From Bacteroidales bacterium (GTDB taxonomy: Bacteria; Bacteroidota; Bacteroidia; Bacteroidales; TTA-H9): a stretch of DNA of 64,000 bases. Positions 41,335-50,379 of this stretch are shown piece by piece; within the stretch, counting starts at the first letter, position 1, and every line of letters starts with the position of its first letter. The position numbers were made by a program, and so were the translations under genes. The notes beneath the pieces were generated by a model. It saw only the letters and a list, made by a program, of their open reading frames with translations. It was not told the DNA's origin and searched no databases. The DNA is taken from assembly GCA_049969475.1 (NCBI GenBank), contig JBMFOU010000020.1, forward strand, positions 110-64,109, written 5' to 3'.

Positions 41335-41637
41335 ATGACGAGTCTTATTGAGGAGTTTGCTGATGATTTTTATGCCGAGGCCGATGAATAGCTGGGTTCG
41401 ATTCGAAAGTTGCTGCTTGAAGCAGAGCAGCATCCCCTGACTGCCGACCAGTTGCAGGCGCTCTTGAGAGCTTATCATACACTCAAAGGAATCTCGGGTA
41501 TGATGGGATTTTGATTTGTTGAAGAAATTTCCCACGACCTGGAAGCCTACCTTAAGAATCTTCAAAAACAAGGGAAGAATCTTGACAAGGACAATATTAC
41601 CTTTATTATCACTGGAACTTCGCTCATTGAATCCAAT
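41335..41637 (+). pseudogene. cheA: CheA Hpt (P1) domain coding segment, in frame with the downstream CheA ORF but interrupted by in-frame TAG (41389-41391) and TGA (41512-41514)
   Basis: My translation: MTSLIEEFADDFYAEADE*LGSIRKLLLEAEQHPLTADQLQALLRAYHTLKGISGMMGF*FVEEISHDLEAYLKNLQKQGK... The phospho-His motif HTLKG has its His codon at 41476-41478. Both 41335 and 41638 are congruent to 1 mod 3. ATG 41335 lies 3 nt after the cheY stop. Confidence 0.85.
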
Positions 41638-43332
41638 TTGAGCTCTAAAGGACAAGCCAACGAAGCGGATCTGGCATCATGGGGCGAATTGAAGGGGCGA
41701 CTTAAAGATTTGACTTTGGGTGAGAAGGTGGAAGATACAGCCAATTCTGCATCCCCCATGGCCAAAAAATTCAGAGTGGTTTTCGAATCATCGAAAGAAA
41801 ATTTTGAACAGAATATCACGGTAAATACGATTCGGGATATTTTAAGTGCACATTGTCAAATTCTTGAGGTTCATCCTATTACAGGTGAGAGTGACAGGTT
41901 ATTTTTTGAATTTATCGTATCTTCTGAATTGCCTTGCGACGAGCTGAGCAGAACTATGCCTGTTGCGGTCAAATGCGAAGCTTTGGAGGCTTTACCCACA
42001 GAGGGAGCTACCGTTGAAATAAATTCTTCCGGAGCAGGAAGTGCGTTTGTGGAGGCCAAAGAGAAGGTAGAATCGCCAGTAGGACGCGAAGAAAGGTCGG
42101 CTCTTAAAAGTGGCTTTGTTCGGGTTGACATCCATCGGTTGGAAGACCTGATGACCCTGATTGGAAATCTGGTAATTAGCCGCAGCAAGCTGGAAGAAGC
42201 CCTGCAGGTTTTGTCAAAAGAGGTAAAGGAGAATAAACTAAGATCATTGATTGAAATTAACCAACTGATGGAGCGTCAGTTGCGTAATCTGAGGGAAGGG
42301 GTCATGCGTGTACGCATGGTTCCTATTGCCGATGCTTTCGACCGCATGCAATACATAATTCAGGAAGCCTCGCGCAATTACAATCGTAAAATCCAGTTAC
42401 ATGTTGTTGGTAGGGAAACAGAAATCGATAAATATGTAGTGGAGCGCATGATCGATTCTTTGCTTCACCTGGTGCGAAATGCGGTGAGCCATGGTATTGA
42501 ACCCCCTGAAGAAAGGGTGAAGGCTGGTAAACCAGAAGTAGGAAATATTTATCTAAAGGCTTTTACTTCCGGCGATTCTGTTATTCTTGAGATTTCTGAC
42601 GATGGAAGAGGGATAGACCGACAGAAACTCATACGCAAAGGAATTGAGGCCGGAGTTCTGGCACCCAAAAACGAAGTAAGCGATGCTGAAATACTGGATA
42701 TCATGTGCAGACCAGGTATTTCAAGCAAAGATGAAGCAGATCGTTACAGTGGTAGAGGAGTAGGAATGGATGTGGTGCAGCGTACAATAATTGAATTGGG
42801 CGGTCAGCTCGATTTCAAGTCGGAACCCAATCAGGGGACCACTTTTATTATCCAGCTTCCGCTAACCATTGCTATTCTCGATGCACTCATCCTCCGGGTA
42901 GGAAACATGCGTTTTGCACTCCCTCAAACTATGGTCTCAGAAGTGATTCAGGTAGATCAAAACGATATAACCAGCATTGAAGGGAATCTCATCATTCCCT
43001 ACCGGAATCATGTGCTGGCAATCATCGATCTGATGGAATATTTCCATATAGGAGAGGGCGGCAGCGGAATGCGAAACGTGCTGGTGTGCAGCAGTGGTTC
43101 AAGGCTGGCCGGCCTGATGGTGGACAAAGTAGAAGGAATAAGGGAAATTGTGGTACGAACCATCACCGACCCACTGGTCTCGGTTCCGGGTATTTCTGGG
43201 GCTACCGAGCTAGGCGACGGCAAGCTGATTCTTATTATCGATGCTAACGCACTCATAAAACATGTAGTTCAAATCCGTCAGAAAAGTGCAAGGAAAATTG
43301 AAGGTTTACCTAATTTATTGAAAAATGAGTAA
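41638..43332 (+). CDS. cheA: Chemotaxis histidine kinase CheA core (dimerization, HATPase, CheW-like P5). The longest stop-free part of the gene.
   Basis: H-kinase dimerization region VRVDIHRLEDLMTLIGNLVI, N-box HLVRNAVSHGIE, G1 DDGRGID, G2 GRGVGMDVV, C-terminal CheW-like domain. The M at 41638 is a TTG picked by the ORF caller and is not a supported start. Confidence 0.9.
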   Translation: MSSKGQANEADLASWGELKGRLKDLTLGEKVEDTANSASPMAKKFRVVFESSKENFEQNITVNTIRDILSAHCQILEVHPITGESDRLFFEFIVSSELPCDELSRTMPVAVKCEALEALPTEGATVEINSSGAGSAFVEAKEKVESPVGREERSALKSGFVRVDIHRLEDLMTLIGNLVISRSKLEEALQVLSKEVKENKLRSLIEINQLMERQLRNLREGVMRVRMVPIADAFDRMQYIIQEASRNYNRKIQLHVVGRETEIDKYVVERMIDSLLHLVRNAVSHGIEPPEERVKAGKPEVGNIYLKAFTSGDSVILEISDDGRGIDRQKLIRKGIEAGVLAPKNEVSDAEILDIMCRPGISSKDEADRYSGRGVGMDVVQRTIIELGGQLDFKSEPNQGTTFIIQLPLTIAILDALILRVGNMRFALPQTMVSEVIQVDQNDITSIEGNLIIPYRNHVLAIIDLMEYFHIGEGGSGMRNVLVCSSGSRLAGLMVDKVEGIREIVVRTITDPLVSVPGISGATELGDGKLILIIDANALIKHVVQIRQKSARKIEGLPNLLKNE

Positions 43333-43780
43333 CTCAACGGTTCAGACTGATTCATACATACTTTTTCAATTGGGAGACAATCATTTTGCTTTGCCCAGTG
43401 TAGTCGTGAAGCAACTTGATATGGTAGAATCCATTACCCCTATCCCTGGTGCGCCTTTTTATGTTGAAGGGATTGTTTTTAGCCGGGGCCTGGTGATTCC
43501 AGTGGTTAACCTGCGACTGAGGCTGGGTATGGAATACAAGCAGCCCGATATGCGTTCACGTATGATTATCATTTACAGCCACAATCGACATATAGGTTTG
43601 ATTGTGGACTCAGCCCGCGATTTTGTGCACTTGCAGGCTGACTCTATCCTTCCCCCTCCTGAAAATGTAGCCGGACTCTCGGGAAATTACCTTATGGGTA
43701 TAGCCCACCTCAAAGACCGCTTGGTTATTGTGCTTAATGTGGATGCTTTAATGAATGAAGAAGTTACTGATAATAAATAA
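43325..43780 (+). CDS. cheW: Coupling protein CheW
   Basis: 151 aa. [21 protein letters not shown]...[23 protein letters not shown]. The ATG overlaps the cheA stop (ATGAGTAA). Confidence 0.9.
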
Positions 43781-43793
43781 ATCTAAGGTGAAT

Positions 43794-45875
43794 ATGCTCT
43801 GGAATTCGAAAAAACGCAAAACAAATACAGTTATGAATGAAAAAATGAAAGAGACAGGGATTTCTGCTGAGGTAAGAGAGACCCTGAATGTTTACATACG
43901 TTCGCTCTTGAGCCATGTTACGGGCTTGGAAGAAAAGACCGAACGGGTAGTGAAAGGTGCCGAAGACCAGGTGAAAGCCATTGACAATCTGTTGAGTGGT
44001 CAGAATCAGGCGGCAGCCACGCTTAAAGAAAATGCTGAACAGGCCGAGTCGATTGCCGTTTCGGCCGAGGAAATGCTCAGTGGTATTAATGAAATAGCAG
44101 CCTCTGTTGAGCAAATCAGTTCAGGAGCCAAAGTTCTGGATACTGCTACCGAGGAGGTAGCCAATGCTACAACGGAATCCGTGGCCGGAACCCAGCAAGT
44201 TGCGCAGGGTGCTCTCGAGATGTCAGCCTCGGCCCAGGAACTGGCCGCTTCAATGACTGAACTATCGGCTTCCTTTAGAAGCGTTGGCGAAGACACCCAA
44301 GTGCTAATAGGAAACATTGATGGAGTAGCAACCGCCATCGAACAAATTGGAAAAACTACCGACAACCTCGCCCAGAATTCGCTCGATTTAGCCTCTGCCG
44401 CCGAACAAAGCACTTCTGCCATCAACGAAATGGCTTCTGCCATAGAAGAGGTAACAGCCACTACCGAACATCTATCTGCCAATATCGAAAAGGTTGCTTC
44501 AGCAAATGAAGAACTTGCAAGAAGTTTTGAAAGCGTCTCGCAGTCCGTTAAAATTATCAGTTCAGCCAACGACAATGCGGCGACAAGCGCCACACAGCTC
44601 GATGCCAGCTCCCGGTCGGTGGCTTCCATGGCCTCACAGGCCAAAGAATTCAGCTCGTTAATGAAGCAAAGAACCACCGAGGGTATTGATCTGGCGCAGA
44701 AATCCATTCAGGGATTGTTTAAGGTCAAGGAATCGTTTACGGCTACTTCTTCCGTTATCAAAGAGTTAGGACGTCGATCCTCAGAAATAAGTAGTATTGT
44801 AGATACCATCAATCTCATTTCTGAACCTACGAATCTTCTGTCGCTCAATGCTTCCATAGAGGCAGCCAGGGCAGGTGAGGCAGGCAGAGGATTTGCGGTA
44901 GTGGCCGAGGAGATACGCAATCTGGCCGATAGAGCAGCCAAAGCTACTGCTGATATTGCAGCTATTATTCGTTCGTTTCAGGAGATTACACAGGAAGCAG
45001 TTTCTTCAACCAGTGAGGGCTTACGTATTGTGGATGAAGGAACTCACCTGGCTGATGAAAGTTTAAAAGGGTTGAATGTAATCAAAGAAGCCATTGAGCA
45101 AACCAACCAGGTTATTGGGCAGGTGGCCAAAGCATCGGATGAACAGATGGCTGCTTCTGCCAATGTTATGAAGCTGGTCAAGGAAACCTCTGAAAAGACC
45201 CGTGATGTAGTAAGAGCTATTGAGGAACAAACTTTGGGGTCGAAAGAAATTGCTACCAGTATGGCTACCATGCGCACTTCAGCCAAACAGGTTGCTCAAA
45301 GCATGGCCGAGCAAGGCAAAGCTGCCCGCGAAATTATTCGGGCCGCCCAAGCTACCTCTCAGCTGGCTGTGCATCTTAAGAATGCCTCCGCCGAGCAAAG
45401 CAAAGCAGTTCAGCTTATTACCCAAAATACCTCCAGCGTCCAGAAAATGGCTCAAAAAACAGCTAAAGCTATTCAGGAGCAGATATTGGCTGGTGATCAG
45501 GTGGCTAAAGAAGTGGTAAGGCTTGAGAAAATTATTTCTGCCACATCCAAGGCCATGAATGAACAATCGGTAGCCGCTAACCAAATTTCACACTCTATAG
45601 AAAATATCCGCAAACATGCACGCCAGACGGCTTCAGCGCTTGCTGAGCAATCGAAGGCTATCCATGAAATGAGTTTGGCAACCCAGAGTATTAGCCGTCA
45701 AATAGCCCAACTTTCGAAGGCAAATAAAGAACATGTTAAAGTTAACGAGGACGCCCTGAATAGACTGGCTGAAATCAGACGAATTACTGATCGCAACTCT
45801 TCAGAAGCCCGCGAAAGTCTTTCCATCTTACAAATTATAAGAGAAAAAGCCGCTGAACTGGATAGGCTTATCTAA
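43794..45875 (+). CDS. Soluble methyl-accepting chemotaxis protein consisting only of an unusually long, internally repetitive signalling hairpin
   Basis: Tip motif [35 protein letters not shown]. No hydrophobic segment, HAMP or sensor domain. ATG 43794 (after the cheW stop) preferred over 43755. 28-residue periodicity throughout. Confidence 0.85.
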
Positions 45876-45890
45876 TACATTGATGACATT

Positions 45891-48461
45891 ATGAATCAGA
45901 TAGGTGCTTCCCAAAATAATTACAATGAACCCCAGGGGGTAGGTGTGGCCTCGCTCAATCTACTCTATGAGGTTGTTTACTGGAACGATAACATGCGAAG
46001 TATTACCGGGCTGAGCGAAGCTGAGGTAAAAGGGAAACACATTGAGGATATTCTCCCGGGTTTCAAGAGTCCACTTATGCGCAGGAGGATGGATAATTGT
46101 GTGCGAAACGGAGTGGTGGAATTCATTAGCGGAGTCCTCAATTCCCGACTTTTTATTCGGCCCGGATCTGATTCTGAGGCTCTGAAAGACTTTATGCTAA
46201 CCCTGGCACCCCTTCGTATAGAGGAGGAAGAGTCGGTGGGAATGATTTTGATTCTGGAGGTTACAGGACAGGGCCAAAGAGAGAAGACTGACGAAGCCCA
46301 ATCCGTGAGTTGTCCGTATGAGGCGCTCGATACGGCTCAATTGGTGGAAGATTTGATACATCGCCATCACAATCCGGCTTTGCTTTCATCGGTGCTCGCT
46401 CTTCTCACAACAGCTACCGGTAACCTGGTACCTATGCTGGTAGAATTACTGGAAAAATCTGATGCAGACCTGAAAATATATGTTTTGCAGACCCTGGGCG
46501 AAAGAGGCGACAACGAGGCTATTCCGGCCATCATTAAATCCCTCGACGATCCCGACCCTAATGTTAAATACCATGCTATAGAAGCTTTGGGCAAACTAAA
46601 GGCTGTAGAATGTGTCAACCAACTGGTTTCCATAGCTTTCAGTGATGATTACTTCCTTTCTTCAGCTGCTATCATGGCCCTGGCACTTATGGGTGACGCA
46701 ATGGTGTATCCTTCCCTGCGTTTGCTTTGGAAAAATGAAATGCTAACCGATGCCATGATTTCGCTGGCCTCTGCCTGTGGAACTGTGGAAGCGGTTACTG
46801 ATTTGTGTACCGTTATTAATCAGAATCCTTTATATACGGCGGAAGCAGCCCAAGCGCTGGCAAAAATATTATCAGGTCATCGTCTTCCTTTGACTGCCAC
46901 CCCTCACGAAAAGTTAATCTCAAAGTTGATTGATGCCACAGGGGCGCAAAACTTACTTCGGGTGGCAGAGCAGGCACCAGAAGATAAACTTCCTGCATTA
47001 TTGCGAATTCTGGCTTTGCTGGATTACCCTTCGGTTGACAAGTTTTTGATCAGGGTGATTGGGAACCCTCAGGTAAAGGAGGTAGTGATTGAGGGTTTAG
47101 TAAAAAAAGGTGACCGTTTGATGCCGGCTTTGGCTCAACTCATAGAGAGCGGCGACGAATCGGAGCGCTCCGCCGCTATTATCACGTTGGGACGCATTGG
47201 TAACTCGGCAGCATTGCCTTATCTTGTAAAGGCCCTCAATGATGAGCCTCAGTTAGCTATACTTGCTGCCGGGGCCCTGGCTAAAATCGGCGACCGCGCT
47301 GCCTTCGAACCCCTGATAGCCAATTTGGGTCATCCCGATCCCCTGGTTCGCAGAGCTGCAATTTCAGCCCTGAATAGCATAGGTCATCCGCAGATGGAAG
47401 CAGTTATCTTCAGACTTCTGGATGATCCTGATCCTTTGGTACGTGAGTCGGCTATCAAAATTGCCGGTTATTTTGGATATCCTTCCTGCGCCCCAAAAGT
47501 CGTCAGTGCTTTATATGATTCCGATAACCTCGTTCTCGCAGCAGCGATTGAGGCTTTGCCTTTTTTCGACCTGGAGAATGCTGAAAAATTACTCACTGGG
47601 TTGTTTCATACGTCCAATGCACGCATTAGGTCGCAGATTGCCAAGTCGGCAGCTTTCCTGGAGCCTGAAATGGCCTTGCCCATTCTGCGTCTTGCCCTCT
47701 CTGACCTTGATCCCTGGGTGCGAACCTTTGCGTTGCGAAGTGTATCGAGACAGGGGCTTAAAGAATTTCATCCCATATTAAAAGAAATTCTTGAGGGCGA
47801 CCATCCTCCTTTTCTTTATGCGGCAGCCATGGAAGCAGTCGGAGCCTTACAGCTCGTGGAGTTTATGCCATTGCTCAAGCAGTATGCTCAAAGCAGTAAT
47901 CTTGACCTTGCCGGCGCTGCCATTAATGCACTTGCTGACCTGGGTATGGAGGAAGCGCTTAATCACTTACTTGAAATGCTTCCGGGAGTCGACGCCGAAC
48001 TAAAAAAATATCTTATACAGGTGCTTCGTCATTTCAATCATAATGCTGTGGTCGATCAACTCGTTGTTCTGGCTTCGGCCTCTCACGATGAAGCGCTCCG
48101 GCAGGCATGTATTGAAACCCTTTCAATCCTGGATACCCCACATGCGTATCTTGGTTTGCTCAAGCTTATTAGAATTCCAGCATGTCAAACCGGCACGATT
48201 GAGGCACTCATTGCTAAAAAGAAACACTATCCGGAGCTTATCTGGCAGTTTGGTCAGATGAGTGTTGAAAATCGCCTGCTCCTGGTGAGCCTTTTACAGC
48301 ACCTGCCCCTTGCCATGTTCCGCGACATTTTGGTAAGATATGCATCGGATGAAGACTTTAGGGTAAGAAATCATTACCATATGCTACTTACGGAGCTTGA
48401 TCTGCTCATGGCACTCGAGGATTCTGTTACGGGCAATAAGACCGGTCATCGAGAAAATTAA
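45891..48461 (+). CDS. PAS domain + HEAT-repeat (PBS-lyase-like) protein
   Basis: N-terminal ~120-aa PAS-like fold, then many HEAT-like units with a D(P/L)DPxVRxxAxxALG signature (DPDPNVKYHAIEALGKL, HPDPLVRRAAISALNSIG, DPDPLVRESAIKIAG, DLDPWVRTFALRSV). Confidence 0.8.
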   Translation: MNQIGASQNNYNEPQGVGVASLNLLYEVVYWNDNMRSITGLSEAEVKGKHIEDILPGFKSPLMRRRMDNCVRNGVVEFISGVLNSRLFIRPGSDSEALKDFMLTLAPLRIEEEESVGMILILEVTGQGQREKTDEAQSVSCPYEALDTAQLVEDLIHRHHNPALLSSVLALLTTATGNLVPMLVELLEKSDADLKIYVLQTLGERGDNEAIPAIIKSLDDPDPNVKYHAIEALGKLKAVECVNQLVSIAFSDDYFLSSAAIMALALMGDAMVYPSLRLLWKNEMLTDAMISLASACGTVEAVTDLCTVINQNPLYTAEAAQALAKILSGHRLPLTATPHEKLISKLIDATGAQNLLRVAEQAPEDKLPALLRILALLDYPSVDKFLIRVIGNPQVKEVVIEGLVKKGDRLMPALAQLIESGDESERSAAIITLGRIGNSAALPYLVKALNDEPQLAILAAGALAKIGDRAAFEPLIANLGHPDPLVRRAAISALNSIGHPQMEAVIFRLLDDPDPLVRESAIKIAGYFGYPSCAPKVVSALYDSDNLVLAAAIEALPFFDLENAEKLLTGLFHTSNARIRSQIAKSAAFLEPEMALPILRLALSDLDPWVRTFALRSVSRQGLKEFHPILKEILEGDHPPFLYAAAMEAVGALQLVEFMPLLKQYAQSSNLDLAGAAINALADLGMEEALNHLLEMLPGVDAELKKYLIQVLRHFNHNAVVDQLVVLASASHDEALRQACIETLSILDTPHAYLGLLKLIRIPACQTGTIEALIAKKKHYPELIWQFGQMSVENRLLLVSLLQHLPLAMFRDILVRYASDEDFRVRNHYHMLLTELDLLMALEDSVTGNKTGHREN

Positions 48462-48463
48462 CT

Positions 48464-49321
48464 ATGCGTTTTTATCGGGAATCTCTAGGTCTGAGTGACA
48501 GTGCTTTTACTATTTTACGCGATCTCATTCACGAGCGCACAGGTATTTATTTCGACGAGATGCGCCGCGACATGTTGGCAGACAAACTCTCTGGAAGAGT
48601 TATTGAGCTGGGGTTTAATAGCTTCCTCGATTATTATTATTTCCTGAAATACGATCCCGCAGGGGAATCCGAGTTTAAGGTAATTTTTAATCTTATTACA
48701 GTTAATGAAACCTACTTTTTCAGGGAAATGCATGCGCTGGAGGCTATTGTGTACCATCTGGTACCCCTGCTTAAAAATCACCTCAACGGAGGAACTTTGC
48801 GCATTTGGAGTGCAGCCTGTAGCAGTGGGGAAGAACCTCTTACCATTGCAATAATGCTAAAAGAAGCGGGGCTATGGGACCCAACTATAGAAATCATAGG
48901 AACTGATGCTTCGAGCCTGGCCCTTGGAAAAGCCATTAAGGGCCTATACAGCGAGCGATCATTCAGAGCCACATCCAACGAAATACGTAAAAAATATTTT
49001 AAACTTACTGAAAATGGATTGTATCAAATAGCGCCTGAAATTCACCAGAGTATTCGTTGGGCGGTGGTAAACCTTAAAGAAGCGTTTCAGGTACGGCCTT
49101 TTGCTGCCAGCCACATCATACTGTGCCGCAATGTATTTATTTACTTCTCAAGTTCTGTAATTCAAGAGGTCGTGGAAAATTTTTATAAATTTATGCCTGA
49201 GATCGGTTATTTGGTAGTAGGTGTATCTGAATCTCTGCTCAAATACCCCATTCCTTTCGAGATGGTAGATGTAAATGGGGCACTTCTTTATGCTAAAAAT
49301 CATAAAAATCTGAATAAATGA
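48464..49321 (+). CDS. cheR: Chemotaxis protein methyltransferase CheR
   Basis: N-terminal helical CheR_N domain, VNETYFFRE, SAM-binding IWSAACSSGEEPLTIA, ILCRNVFIYF. Confidence 0.92.
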   Translation: MRFYRESLGLSDSAFTILRDLIHERTGIYFDEMRRDMLADKLSGRVIELGFNSFLDYYYFLKYDPAGESEFKVIFNLITVNETYFFREMHALEAIVYHLVPLLKNHLNGGTLRIWSAACSSGEEPLTIAIMLKEAGLWDPTIEIIGTDASSLALGKAIKGLYSERSFRATSNEIRKKYFKLTENGLYQIAPEIHQSIRWAVVNLKEAFQVRPFAASHIILCRNVFIYFSSSVIQEVVENFYKFMPEIGYLVVGVSESLLKYPIPFEMVDVNGALLYAKNHKNLNK

Positions 49322-50379
49322 ATCATAATCCAGAAAAGATCATCCGGGTACTGGTCGTCGACGATTCGGCATACATACGCAAGGTCATGCGGCAGATGCT
49401 CGACAAAAGTCCATTTATTGAGGTGGTGGGAACCGCTATCAATGGATTGGATGCTTTGGAGAAGGTTGAATTACTGGATCCCGATGTTATCACCCTCGAC
49501 CTGATAATGCCCGAGATGGACGGGGTGAGCTTTCTCAAAGAGTTGATGAAGCGAAAGCCTAAACCGGTTGTAGTGGCCAGTATTGCCAGCGAAAGCGGTG
49601 AGTTGGCTATGGCTGCCATGGAGGCCGGAGCCATTGAATTCATTCAGAAACCTACGGCCCTGGCTACTGAGAAAGTTTTTGAGATTTCCAGTGAACTGAT
49701 AGAGAAAGTGAAAAGTGCAGCCCAGGCACGTTTAATCCCCGCTGAAAAGGAAAGGGTGTCAGTTTTACCCGGAGAAATTCCTGGCTTTGAGCGCGAACGT
49801 CTTGCTTTCGATATAGTTGTGATAGGTGTATCTACCGGAGGCCCCCAGGCTTTGAAATCCATCATTCCCCTGATGCCGGCCGATTTTCCGGTTCCTGTGT
49901 GTGTTGTAATGCATATGCCGGTAGGATATACCAGTCTCTACGCACAGAAGCTCAACGAAATATCTGCAGTTGAGGTGCTCGAAGCCAGCGTAGGGATGCA
50001 GCTTTTGCCGGGCCGCGTAATTTTGGGGCAGGCGGGTGAACATTTTGGAATCAAGCGATTGCCTGGAGGTGAAGCGGTAGTAACCTTCCCCAGCGAACCC
50101 ACCGAAAGTATTCACAAACCTTCTGTCAACGTACTTTTCCGTTCAGCAGCCGAAGTTTTTGGACAAAGGGTGCTTGGAGTGGTAATGACAGGCATGGGAA
50201 ACGATGGACAGGAAGGCGCAGCATGGATAAAAGCCAGAGGAGGAAAAATCATTACCCAGGATGAAGATTCCTGCGTAGTATACGGAATGCCTCGCTCAGT
50301 GTTAGAGGCAGGCCTTTCCGATAAAGTAGTTCCATTAAACCAAATGTTAAACACCCTAATTAAAGAACTGTTGCTATGA
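49318..50379 (+). CDS. cheB: Protein-glutamate methylesterase CheB (REC + methylesterase)
   Basis: REC (VLVVDDS, VITLDLIMPEMDG). Catalytic Ser in GVSTGGP, His in VMHMP, Asp in GMGNDG. ATGA overlap with cheR. Confidence 0.92.
   Translation: MNHNPEKIIRVLVVDDSAYIRKVMRQMLDKSPFIEVVGTAINGLDALEKVELLDPDVITLDLIMPEMDGVSFLKELMKRKPKPVVVASIASESGELAMAAMEAGAIEFIQKPTALATEKVFEISSELIEKVKSAAQARLIPAEKERVSVLPGEIPGFERERLAFDIVVIGVSTGGPQALKSIIPLMPADFPVPVCVVMHMPVGYTSLYAQKLNEISAVEVLEASVGMQLLPGRVILGQAGEHFGIKRLPGGEAVVTFPSEPTESIHKPSVNVLFRSAAEVFGQRVLGVVMTGMGNDGQEGAAWIKARGGKIITQDEDSCVVYGMPRSVLEAGLSDKVVPLNQMLNTLIKELLL

What the first reader, a model, noticed from the sequence alone, without database searches (positions are those of the whole stretch)
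43794..45875. Sensor-less soluble MCP built from phased 28-residue (84-nt) repeats, with a hairpin far longer than standard chemoreceptor classes
The protein has no TM, HAMP, PAS or Cache domain. The conserved tip ([27 protein letters not shown]) lies near residue 375 of the 706-codon ORF, leaving roughly 330-350 residues on each side. On the C-arm an acidic-Gln dipeptide recurs with an exact 84-nt period: GAR-CAR at 45141, 45225, 45309, 45393, 45477, 45561 and 45645 ([70 protein letters not shown]). The N-arm shows the same 28-residue phase (EE 105/106, EE 133/134, QE 161/162, EQ 217/218, EK 245/246). Twenty-eight residues is four heptads, so the rod appears to have been lengthened symmetrically by duplicating a four-heptad unit on both arms. 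Published MCP length classes run from 24H to 64H total heptads. If both arms are fully coiled coil this one would be about 90 or more heptads. The repeated EQ/EE pairs also resemble methylation-site consensus, so many CheR/CheB sites are possible.
Basis: partly seen in the sequence, partly recalled or inferred. Interest (0 to 1): 0.65.

Follow-up and report, generated by a model that had tools for sequence, protein, structure and literature searches.

The report
Extra-long soluble chemoreceptor (about 96 heptads)
This gene encodes a sensor-less cytoplasmic chemoreceptor whose coiled-coil hairpin (about 96 heptads, roughly 50 nm) is well beyond the published 24H-64H length classes. It belongs to a conserved, uncatalogued family that always sits next to a PAS/HEAT-repeat protein in a Myxococcus Che7-type signalling operon.

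Summary
ORF 43755-45875 (likely start 43794) encodes a soluble MCP whose only domain is MCPsignal, with the tip at E375.

The heptad pattern runs unbroken from residue 39 to 706, giving about 48 + 47 heptads. Two AlphaFold runs give an all-helical hairpin.

This protein is not a one-off:
- At least 124 species genomes carry relatives, mostly Acidobacteriota, also Chloroflexota, Cyanobacteriota and Planctomycetota.
- Seven E-Q modules recur in 76 of 77 readable loci, and 68 full-length homologues show no indel across 665 residues.
- A PAS/HEAT gene lies directly downstream in 74 of 74 loci.
- The order CheY-CheA-CheW-MCP-HEAT-CheR-CheB matches M. xanthus che7, whose Mcp7 is an 821-aa cytoplasmic receptor.

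C-arm lengths among relatives fit 140 + 28n residues, so the rod looks like a 40H-type core plus seven four-heptad modules per arm. The repeats are ancient and leave no DNA-level repeat.

The N-arm E/Q pairs sit at the heptad position of Tsr methylation sites. The C-arm Gln is a conserved core residue.

In this Bacteroidales genome the pathway may be decaying. CheA P1 has two stops, and the receptor tip carries a unique R358P change.

Verdict: a new variant of a known kind, of moderate interest.

The parts
43755..45875 (+). Soluble MCP gene. The longest ORF is 706 codons. The probable start is 43794 (693 aa); 43833 is also possible.
43794..43865 (+). Short basic N-terminal peptide ([13 protein letters not shown]..., residues 14-37). 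It is predicted disordered and is not part of the rod.
   Evidence: pLDDT below 50 in both models. Most of the family has no residue aligned to residues 6-19 and 24-32.
43866..44876 (+). N-arm helix, residues 38-374 (about 48 heptads).
   Evidence: Unbroken heptad phase. Helical in AlphaFold.
44055..44558 (+). Six N-arm 28-residue modules (residues 101-268). They carry MH1-like EE/NE/EQ pairs 7 residues apart.
   Evidence: Nine [EQ][EQ] pairs are conserved in at least 80% of the family, all at (tip - pos) mod 7 = 3.
44769..44969 (+). Kinase-control tip (residues 339-405), with the hairpin turn at E375 (44877-44879).
   Evidence: Block of invariant columns in 69 sequences. Aligns with TM1143 and Tsr.
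44826..44828 (+). Codon CCT, giving Pro358, where the family has Arg or Gln. It is the only Pro in the protein.
   Evidence: 0 of 240 homologues have Pro here. The same-genus orthologue has CGT (Arg).
44880..45872 (+). C-arm helix, residues 376-706 (about 47 heptads).
45129..45716 (+). Seven C-arm 28-residue modules (residues 459-654, consensus kA..EQ.kA...I...). An eighth, degenerate module (KEH) follows.
43325..43780 (+). cheW, immediately upstream.
41335..43332 (+). cheA. P2-P5 are open from 41638. The P1/Hpt part (41335-41637) has two in-frame stops around the HTLKG histidine.
45891..48461 (+). PAS + HEAT-repeat protein (856 aa), the invariable downstream partner of this receptor family.
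   Evidence: Present downstream in 74 of 74 related loci.
48464..50379 (+). cheR and cheB, encoding the adaptation enzymes.

Best explanation
**What it is.** The gene encodes the single, dedicated cytoplasmic receptor of a Che7-type chemosensory operon of the 'alternative cellular function' kind. The gene order is REC-CheY-CheA-CheW-MCP-PAS/HEAT-CheR-CheB-CheY-CheC/X-hybrid kinase.

**Shown here.**
- The protein is one uninterrupted helical hairpin of about 48 + 47 heptads (roughly 96H).
- It has no sensor domain.
- It reads as a 40H-type core extended on each arm by seven 28-residue (four-heptad) modules.
- These modules are copies of the adaptation-region segment. The N-arm copies resemble methylation helix 1. 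The C-arm copies repeat the 'A..EQ..A...I' segment that lies opposite it.

**Inferred from what is known of MCPs.**
- Two chains form a four-helix bundle about 50 nm long.
- Bundles trimerise at the tip and bind CheW and CheA to form a cytoplasmic array.
- CheR and CheB methylate and demethylate Glu/Gln pairs. The likeliest sites are the nine conserved N-arm pairs, which occupy the heptad position of Tsr Q297, E304 and Q311.
- With no sensor of its own, the receptor must get its input from a partner or from the adaptation enzymes. The co-conserved PAS/HEAT protein is either that partner (a sensor supplied in trans along the long rod) or the CheY target, as Cpc7 is for CheY7 in Myxococcus.

**Length.** Length appears to be the selected property. 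No residue has been gained or lost over 665 positions across several phyla.

**State in this genome.** The system has probably been damaged recently.
For: - **MCP identity and tip:**. TM1143 (2CH7) matches with TM-score 0.71-0.76 over 306-309 columns.
- **No sensor or TM segment:**
- **Heptad continuity:**
- **All-helix models:** both runs are helical, with breaks that are mirror-symmetric about the tip.
- **28-residue period:**
- **Family and fixed length:** 124 species genomes carry a relative. Of 77 loci with a readable tip, 76 show 7 E-Q units followed in most by an xH position, with an N-arm of about 349 and a C-arm rod of about 335 residues. No indel occurs between residues 42 and 706 in 69 sequences.
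- **Arm symmetry across lengths:** P0069 has about 248/253 residues per arm, the window 337/331, P0041 408/400 and P0061 456/439.
- **Purifying selection:** dN is 0.09 with saturated dS against the same-genus orthologue.
- **Synteny:**
- **Che7 parallel:** locus tags MXAN_6965 to 6959, and Mcp7 as an 821-aa protein with no TM or HAMP, MCPsignal at 317-534, cytoplasmic mobile clusters and binding to CheW7 (PMC3945109). Cpc7 is a HEAT protein that binds CheY7 (PMC11514114).
- **Single system:** this is the only MCP, CheA and CheW in the 3.1-Mb genome.
Against: - No dimer or array model could be made, and no model coordinates are available. Arm pairing therefore rests on symmetry arguments and on the match to TM1143.
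- Mean pLDDT is only about 71, and each model has a low-confidence break in the middle of each arm.
- Methylation sites are assigned by position only.
- The sequence of M. xanthus Mcp7 could not be fetched. Its kinship with this family is inferred from gene order, length and domain coordinates.
- The window protein is by far the longest branch of the family tree (about 2 changes per site).
- Pro358 in the most conserved helix, broken CheA P1 and a reported CheC frameshift raise doubt that the protein still signals in this organism.
Confidence: 0.8

Rival explanations
1. In this genome the gene is a relic. The operon is being lost, and the intact ORF no longer makes a working receptor.
For:
- R358P is unique among 240 homologues, and Pro358 is the only Pro in the protein.
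- Only the same-genus genome keeps the gene among 40 relatives.
- The window protein sits on a very long branch.
Against: - The 2.1-kb frame is fully open.
- dN/dS against the same-genus orthologue is below 0.05.
- Length and all invariant E/Q positions are kept.
- The stops and the Pro could be assembly errors.
- This rival concerns the present state of the gene, not what the protein is.
Confidence: 0.35
2. The N-terminal 300 residues form an independent helical sensor or partner-binding domain, for example a long four-helix-bundle-like module. On this reading the true hairpin has ordinary length.
For: - Pfam MCPsignal covers only residues 329-472.
- Weak sub-threshold hits to DUF948, SMC and Mce-type helical families lie in the N-terminal half.
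- AlphaFold places a break near residues 189-212.
Against: - The C-arm is as long as the N-arm and would have no partner.
- Heptad phase is continuous through the supposed boundary.
- The breaks in the N-arm and C-arm are mirror images in both models.
- N-arm and C-arm lengths change together among relatives.
- There are no indels anywhere in the family.
Confidence: 0.05
3. The rod is mainly a spacer or scaffold. It may be tethered by its distal end, as FrzCD is to the nucleoid, and hold the kinase layer at a fixed distance. On this reading it does not transmit a signal along its length.
For: - Length is strictly conserved.
- Many family members carry K/R-rich tails at the distal end, and the window protein has a basic N-terminal peptide.
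- There is no sensor domain.
Against: - CheR and CheB are always in the operon.
- Methylation-type pairs are conserved on the N-arm, which argues for adaptation and so for signalling through the bundle.
- Scaffold and signalling roles do not exclude each other.
Confidence: 0.12
4. It is a DosM-like receptor with two signalling domains that bridges two baseplates.
For: Pfam reports four MCPsignal stretches, and the protein is very long.
Against: Only one tip motif is present. The extra stretches are the repeated adaptation-type modules.
Confidence: 0.02

Closest known systems
Myxococcus xanthus Che7 system: receptor Mcp7 (MXAN_6962) with the HEAT-repeat protein Cpc7
   Same: - The gene order is the same: CheY-CheA-CheW-MCP-(HEAT protein)-CheR-CheB (locus tags 6965-6959 in PMC3945109; window and 74 related loci).
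- Mcp7 has no TM or HAMP, is 821 aa, and has MCPsignal in the middle (317-534). This implies two arms of about 400 residues, as in P0041 (809 aa).
- Mcp7 is cytoplasmic and binds CheW7.
- Cpc7 is a HEAT protein that binds CheY7 (PMC11514114).
   Different: - The window receptor is about two modules per arm shorter.
- Its HEAT protein has an N-terminal PAS domain.
- The operon continues with CheY, CheC/X and a multi-PAS hybrid kinase.
- The host is a Bacteroidales bacterium.
- Mcp7 was filed as class 40H in that paper, and its extra length was not discussed.
Long transmembrane MCPs of Geobacter and relatives (published class 64H, also written 40+24H)
   Same: - The C-arm A..EQ module recurs in the same 28-residue phase starting at +88 from the tip.
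- The tip is of the same type.
- These are the best full-length matches outside the family, at 28-32% identity over about 500 residues (class names in PMC3543383 and PMC8235581).
   Different: - They have 4HB/HAMP sensors and are membrane-bound.
- They have five E-Q modules and a C-arm of about 253 residues.
- The window family has three more modules on each arm (+24 heptads).
Thermotoga maritima TM1143 cytoplasmic domain (PDB 2CH7, class 44H)
   Same: It is the best solved-structure match by sequence (E 1e-33, query 231-512) and by fold (TM-score 0.71-0.76). It confirms the antiparallel hairpin for the central 300 residues or so.
   Different: It has 22 heptads per arm, against about 48 here.
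E. coli Tsr (class 36H)
   Same: - Tip and adaptation-region motifs align.
- Tsr E465-Q466 aligns with E463-Q464 of the window protein.
- Tsr methylation site E493 lies exactly 28 residues further on, in phase with the window's E491.
- Tsr Q297, E304 and Q311 share the heptad position of the window's N-arm pairs.
   Different: Tsr has 18 heptads per arm, a periplasmic sensor, HAMP, and a C-terminal NWETF tether. No tether motif is present in the window family.
Other cytoplasmic receptors: FrzCD (M. xanthus), and TlpT/DosM-type receptors of sandwich arrays
   Same: They are soluble MCPs that form cytoplasmic clusters. FrzCD has no classical sensor. It is described as nucleoid-associated (PMC6952110, abstract seen); that it binds DNA through a basic tail is from my own knowledge.
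   Different: They have ordinary rod lengths. DosM has two signalling domains. V. cholerae baseplates are 35 nm apart (PMC7184735), whereas a sandwich of these rods would be far thicker.

Membership tests
Methyl-accepting chemotaxis protein (Pfam PF00015 MCPsignal) | Conserved kinase-control tip and flanking helices, scoring above the family cut-off | tested here: met
   136 bits against a cut-off of 34.6. The tip block is invariant in the family alignment. One deviation: Pro358 where all others have Q, R, E or K.
Methyl-accepting chemotaxis protein | Antiparallel helical hairpin with a continuous heptad pattern on both arms | tested here: met
Methyl-accepting chemotaxis protein | Encoded with CheA, CheW, CheR and CheB | tested here: met
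Methyl-accepting chemotaxis protein | Reversible methylation of Glu/Gln pairs | not testable with these tools
   Only positional evidence is available. There are four strict consensus matches in the window protein and nine conserved N-arm pairs at the Tsr-site heptad position.
Published heptad length classes 24H-64H (Alexander and Zhulin 2007; MiST 3.0) | Total number of heptads in the signalling hairpin within 24-64 | tested here: not met
   Direct count gives about 48 + 47 heptads. The class list comes from PMC6943060.
Published heptad length classes 24H-64H | Assignment by the class-specific HMMs | not tested
   The class HMMs are not on hand. Mcp7 was filed as 40H by others (PMC3945109), which suggests the HMMs see only the core.
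Che7-type chemosensory system (M. xanthus che7) | Gene order CheY-CheA-CheW-soluble MCP-HEAT protein-CheR-CheB | tested here: met
   Window; 74 of 74 loci with the HEAT gene downstream; che7 locus tags.
Che7-type chemosensory system | Receptor orthologous to Mcp7, and HEAT protein orthologous to Cpc7 | not tested
   The sequences of Mcp7 and Cpc7 could not be fetched. A search with P0041 returned no named Myxococcus protein at E <= 1e-40.
Che7-type chemosensory system | CheY binds the HEAT protein | not testable with these tools
   Known for CheY7-Cpc7 (PMC11514114).
[quoted passage not shown] | Methylation-type coiled coil without the kinase-control tip | tested here: not met
   The tip is present. 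MAC is defined in PMC6943060; that these proteins lack the tip is from my own knowledge.
DosM-type double-signalling-domain receptors | Two tip regions in one chain | tested here: not met
   One tip motif only.

The most novel reading that the evidence does not exclude
The seven extra four-heptad modules on each arm form a docking rail of fixed length for the PAS/HEAT solenoid. Receptor and sensor would then be two separate proteins, with the signal entering the bundle from the side. The invariant rod of about 50 nm would set the geometry of an unusually thick cytoplasmic array, with baseplates up to about 100 nm apart if sandwiched, and with up to about 16 methyl-accepting positions acting as a deep memory.
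Probability: 0.2. Interest if true: 0.75.

Novelty: new variant of a known kind. Interest (0 to 1): 0.5.

Why it matters
Chemoreceptor length classes are used to assign receptors to pathways and to interpret array thickness in cryo-tomograms, and the catalogue stops at 64H. This finding adds three things.

1. **A longer class.** There is a widespread receptor family of about 96H, with relatives of roughly 112H and 126H. Their lengths follow a simple rule: a 40H-type core plus n four-heptad modules per arm.
2. **Extreme length conservation.** No indel occurs in 665 residues across several phyla. This points to length itself as the functional parameter.
3. **An obligatory partner.** The PAS/HEAT neighbour suggests how a receptor without a sensor gets its input or delivers its output.

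The link to Myxococcus Che7 also gives a genetically tractable model in which to test what the extra modules do.

For this particular genome the biological weight is lower, because the pathway may be decaying.

Tried and rejected
- **DNA-level repeats.** I looked for an 84-nt repeat as a sign of recent duplication. Tandem Repeats Finder found nothing, and only short fragments repeat. The repeats are therefore old.
- **Repeat-number variation inside the family.** Some tblastn matches were longer, which suggested variation. These turned out to be C-terminal low-complexity tails. 76 of 77 readable loci have 7 E-Q units, and the 77th reads out of frame.
- **'Fusion' proteins.** P0003 and P0005 (MCP + PAS/HEAT) and P0050 (MCP + CheR) first looked like evidence of physical coupling. 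Their sequences contain out-of-frame stretches rich in R, G and P, and their loci show split neighbouring genes. I treat them as frameshift artefacts of high-GC assemblies.
- **Papers not held.** The Alexander and Zhulin 2007 paper, Darnell et al. 2014 (Cpc7) and Sharma et al. 2018 are not in the library. Class definitions and Cpc7 facts are taken from papers that cite them.
- **Mcp7 sequence.** A homologue search with P0041 returned six unnamed proteins only.
- **Literature search.** Searches for heptad classes above 64H found none in the held library. This is absence in that library, not proof of absence.
- **Flagella.** The FliG_C search gave one weak hit in a 526-aa ORF. This is probably not FliG, and I did not follow it up.
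Full report
**1. What is at the coordinates**

The + strand ORF 43755..45875 is open for 706 codons. AAGGTG lies a few bases upstream, and the orthologue in a genome of the same genus begins at the equivalent Met (MFWNRKN...). A start at 43833 (Met27) would give the N-arm length usual in the family. I keep the 706-residue numbering below.

Pfam finds one domain, MCPsignal (residues 329-472, E 1.5e-39). It finds no HAMP, PAS, Cache or 4HB domain. NCBIfam gives only sub-threshold matches to other MCPs and to long coiled-coil proteins. No 19-residue window is hydrophobic enough for a membrane helix; the highest mean is 0.95. The tip motif ARAGEAGRG puts the hairpin Glu at residue 375.

**2. The periodicity is real**

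They encode E463/Q464, then the same pair every 28 residues up to E631/Q632.

BLOSUM62 autocorrelation of the protein peaks at lags 28, 56, 84 and 112, with z = 10-11 against shuffles. These peaks are above the other multiples of seven. In the C-arm, lag 28 scores 0.74, against 0.12-0.19 for lags 21 and 35.

Stacked in rows of 28 from the tip, the C-arm reads kA..EQ.kA...I... seven times (+84 to +279). An eighth, degenerate unit (KEH) and a cap follow, ending at +331. The N-arm shows units of the type sAEE..s.nE.aaSvEq.., with acidic or amide pairs 7 residues apart.

At DNA level there is no repeat. Tandem Repeats Finder gives nothing, and only 15-27-nt fragments recur. The units are therefore old and diverged, at about 20% identity.

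**3. Both arms are coiled coil for their whole length**

Mean hydropathy by position modulo 7 keeps the same pattern in every 56-residue segment. The C-arm holds it from the tip to +331 (hydrophobic at 1, 2 and 5). The N-arm holds it from the tip to -336 (hydrophobic at 2 and 5, plus 1). There is no stutter.

This gives about 48 heptads on the N-arm (residues 39-374) and about 47 on the C-arm (376-706), so about 95-96 in all. At about 0.15 nm per residue (general knowledge of coiled coils), the rod is roughly 50 nm long.

I ran AlphaFold2 twice. The first run used a 53-sequence alignment that was partly frameshifted. The second used a clean 69-sequence family alignment.
- Both runs give helix from residue 38 to 705 and a disordered residue range 15-37. 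Mean pLDDT is 71.5 and 70.5.
- Each model has one low-confidence break per arm, and the two breaks mirror each other about the tip.
- The breaks move between runs, stay symmetric, and sit near the middle of the rod. I read them as the single chain folding back on itself to imitate the four-helix bundle that the dimer would form. They do not look like a domain boundary. They also show that the models pair residue 375-k with residue 375+k.

Foldseek places the central 300 residues or so on the T. maritima TM1143 hairpin (2CH7, TM-score 0.71-0.76). The whole model also matches long folded antiparallel coiled coils such as the MukB and cohesin elbows.

**4. It is a family with a fixed length**

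The word-indexed search found about 55 close relatives, the best at 45% identity. Many are fragments, or frameshifted ORFs from high-GC assemblies. The exhaustive search of 1.84 billion representatives found 223,037 MCP-like proteins. Only one, P0002, matches residues 61-702. P0002 is a membrane protein with a CHASE3 sensor on the same rod.

I then scanned one genome per species with an alignment of the distal C-arm only, which avoids the universal tip. This gave 124 genomes with a relative, of which the best 80 were kept. They are mostly Acidobacteriota (Pyrinomonadaceae, Blastocatellia). Others are Chloroflexota (Anaerolineae), Cyanobacteriota (Allocoleopsis, Aerosakkonema, Aulosira), a Gemmataceae genome, and Rokubacteriota among others.

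In 76 of the 77 loci with a readable tip, the C-arm shows the seven E-Q units, followed in most by an xH position. The 77th (L087) reads out of frame. Where the gene is not cut short, the N-arm is about 349 residues and the C-arm rod about 335. A MAFFT alignment of 68 full-length members with the window protein has no gap between window residues 42 and 706. Length varies only in a short N-terminal peptide and in C-terminal K/R-rich tails.

The Gln residues of the modules are invariant or nearly so (Q464, Q492, Q520, Q548, Q604, Q632). So are most of the Glu residues.

A tree groups the members by phylum. The window protein is the longest branch by far, at about 2 changes per site.

**5. Length series**

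Other relatives keep the same 28-residue phase from the tip with no indel, but stop earlier or later.
- Geobacter-type membrane MCPs (P0069 from Geotalea, P0070) have five E-Q units and a C-arm of 253 residues.
- P0041 (809 aa, soluble) has about nine units and a C-arm of 400.
- P0061 and P0067 (896-899 aa, a Bacteroidota MAG) have a C-arm of about 440.

In each, the N-arm matches the C-arm: about 248, 408 and 456 residues. These C-arm lengths fit 140 + 28n, where 140 residues is 20 heptads, one arm of a 40H receptor. On that rule n is 4, 7 (the window family), 9 and about 11. The published '40+24H' or 64H class (PMC3543383; PMC8235581) would be n = 3. This rule is my inference from these lengths, and the class HMMs were not available.

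It also shows that such growth is a general mode among 40H-derived receptors, not an event in this gene. MiST 3.0 lists classes 24H to 64H only (PMC6943060). I found no paper in the held library that describes longer ones.

**6. What the modules are**

The alignment to Tsr (1QU7) puts the window's E463-Q464 on Tsr E465-Q466, with 14 extra residues between tip and motif. Tsr methylation site E493 lies exactly 28 residues after E465. Tsr itself therefore holds two copies of the C-arm unit. The Glu of each window module is in the heptad and 28-residue phase of a known methyl-accepting Glu.

The Gln that follows is on a core position (position 5 modulo 7, hydrophobic on average) and is the most conserved residue of the unit. 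It therefore looks like a buried polar layer repeated every four heptads, rather than the second member of a methylation pair.

On the N-arm, nine [EQ][EQ] pairs are conserved in at least 80% of the family. They start at residues 105, 119, 140, 161, 196, 217, 231, 245 and 252. In all nine, the second residue lies at (tip - position) modulo 7 = 3. Tsr Q297, E304 and Q311 occupy the same position, at 94, 87 and 80 residues from E391 (numbering checked on the 1QU7 alignment).

Four sites in the window protein fit the strict consensus [ASTG][ASTG]xx[EQ][EQ]xx[ASTG][ASTG]. Many CheR/CheB sites are therefore plausible, chiefly on the N-arm. This remains untested.

**7. Genomic setting**

The window operon has this order:
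- REC (40591)
- CheY (40963)
- CheA (41638)
- CheW (43325)
- this MCP
- PAS + HEAT-repeat protein (45891)
- CheR (48464)
- CheB (49318)
- CheY (50376)
- CheC/X (50755)
- a multi-PAS/GAF hybrid kinase (51393)

The 3.1-Mb genome is 98% complete and has no other MCP, CheA or CheW.

I ran tblastn with the window's proteins against the 80 related loci.
- All 74 loci with at least 1.5 kb downstream of the receptor have a PAS/HEAT homologue there.
- 37 loci show the full ten-gene order, and most of the rest are truncated versions of it.
- Four loci read through the gene-call tables agree. One of them is the locus of the longer P0041.

This is the gene order of the M. xanthus che7 operon: CheY7 6965, CheA7 6964, CheW7 6963, Mcp7 6962, CheR7 6960 and CheB7 6959. 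Mcp7 is 821 aa, has no TM or HAMP, and has MCPsignal at 317-534. It is cytoplasmic, forms one or two mobile subpolar clusters, and binds CheW7 (PMC3945109). The gene between mcp7 and cheR7 would be cpc7; that placement is from my own knowledge. Cpc7 is a HEAT protein that binds CheY7 (PMC11514114). The Myxococcus paper filed all M. xanthus MCPs as 40H or 44H, so the unusual length of Mcp7 went unremarked.

I could not fetch Mcp7 to compare it directly. The kinship is an inference from gene order, length and domain position.

**8. State of the gene in this genome**

Against the same-genus orthologue (84% identical over 540 residues), dN is 0.09 and synonymous sites are saturated. dN/dS is below 0.05 where it can be computed. 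The gene has therefore been under purifying selection for most of its history.

Three things nevertheless suggest recent damage to the pathway.
- Codon 358 is CCT (Pro), in the helix leading into the tip. The orthologue has CGT (Arg), and none of 240 homologues has Pro at this position. It is the only Pro in the protein.
- CheA P1 has two in-frame stops around the HTLKG histidine.
I did not test this.

Among 40 related genomes, only the same-genus one has the orthologue. Reads could not be consulted, so assembly error is not excluded.

**9. How it most likely works**

*Shown.* The protein is a sensor-less soluble MCP. It is a continuous hairpin of about 96 heptads with a modular build. The family has a fixed length, and the HEAT, CheR and CheB neighbours are obligatory.

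*Inferred from established MCP biology.* Two chains form a four-helix bundle. Bundles form trimers of dimers at the tip with CheW and CheA, and CheR/CheB adapt the receptor. Because there is no sensor, input must come from a partner or from the adaptation enzymes. The PAS/HEAT protein is the obvious candidate. By the Che7 precedent it may instead, or also, be the CheY target.

*Speculative.* Basic tails at the distal end might tether the rod, as in FrzCD. These are the K/R-rich C-termini of many members and the KKRK peptide at the window protein's N-terminus.

**10. Verdict**

The protein is best described as a member of an uncatalogued receptor class of about 96H belonging to Che7-type systems. 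That makes it a new variant of a known kind rather than a new kind of thing. Interest is moderate. The length rule, the extreme length conservation and the obligatory HEAT partner are worth a specialist's attention and are testable in Myxococcus. This particular copy may be on its way out.

Noticed in passing
window 44826-44828: CCT (Pro358) replaces the Arg/Gln found in all 240 homologues checked, in the helix entering the receptor tip. The same-genus orthologue has CGT. This is either a recent damaging change or an assembly error.
   Followed up: partly
window 41335-41637: The CheA P1/Hpt region reads through in frame, but two stop codons lie on either side of the HTLKG phospho-histidine.
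   Followed up: partly
L020-L099 (C-termini of the receptor genes); window 43794-43865: Many family members end in K/R-rich tails followed by acidic residues (for example KKARKKKKSKR). The window protein lacks this tail but has a basic N-terminal peptide (KKRK). Both ends lie at the distal end of the hairpin, so a nucleoid or membrane tether as in FrzCD is possible.
   Followed up: no
L014/L015 10001-12700 (Bacteroidota MAG, GCA_049663345.1): An even longer soluble MCP (899 aa, tip at 457, arms of about 456/440 residues) sits in a different cluster: CheR-CheB-CheA-Hpt protein-AAA ATPase-CheW (267 aa)-MCP. There is no HEAT protein.
   Followed up: partly
P0059, P0066 (Thermodesulfovibrionales / Nitrospirae MAGs): Long membrane MCPs carry a Cys-rich C-terminal extension after the rod (CWDILNCP...CPAHN...CWLISGTWCKG...CMTCEAFK). 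It looks like a metal- or cluster-binding domain.
   Followed up: no
P0003, P0005, P0050; L016: Apparent fusions of MCP with PAS/HEAT and of MCP with CheR in ENA assemblies contain long out-of-frame stretches rich in R, G and P. They are probably frameshift artefacts, not real fusions.
   Followed up: partly
G000 contig C31:23511-23750 (-): The only FliG_C-like hit in the genome is weak (37.9 bits) and lies in a 526-aa ORF. It is probably an MgtE-type protein rather than a flagellar switch protein. No evidence of flagella was seen.
   Followed up: no
window residues 189-212 and 535-556 of the MCP (about 44319-44390 and 45357-45422): Both AlphaFold models break the two helices at mirror-image positions near mid-rod. 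This is probably a single-chain fold-back artefact. However, the family has conserved Gly/Asp residues nearby (NADDL at about -165, MRRG at about +188), so a real second hinge is not excluded.
   Followed up: partly
P0095, P0077, P0099 and similar (Bradyrhizobium): A separate group of MCPs has a short N-side (147-246 residues before the tip) but about 450 residues after the tip. This asymmetric architecture is unrelated to the window family.
   Followed up: no
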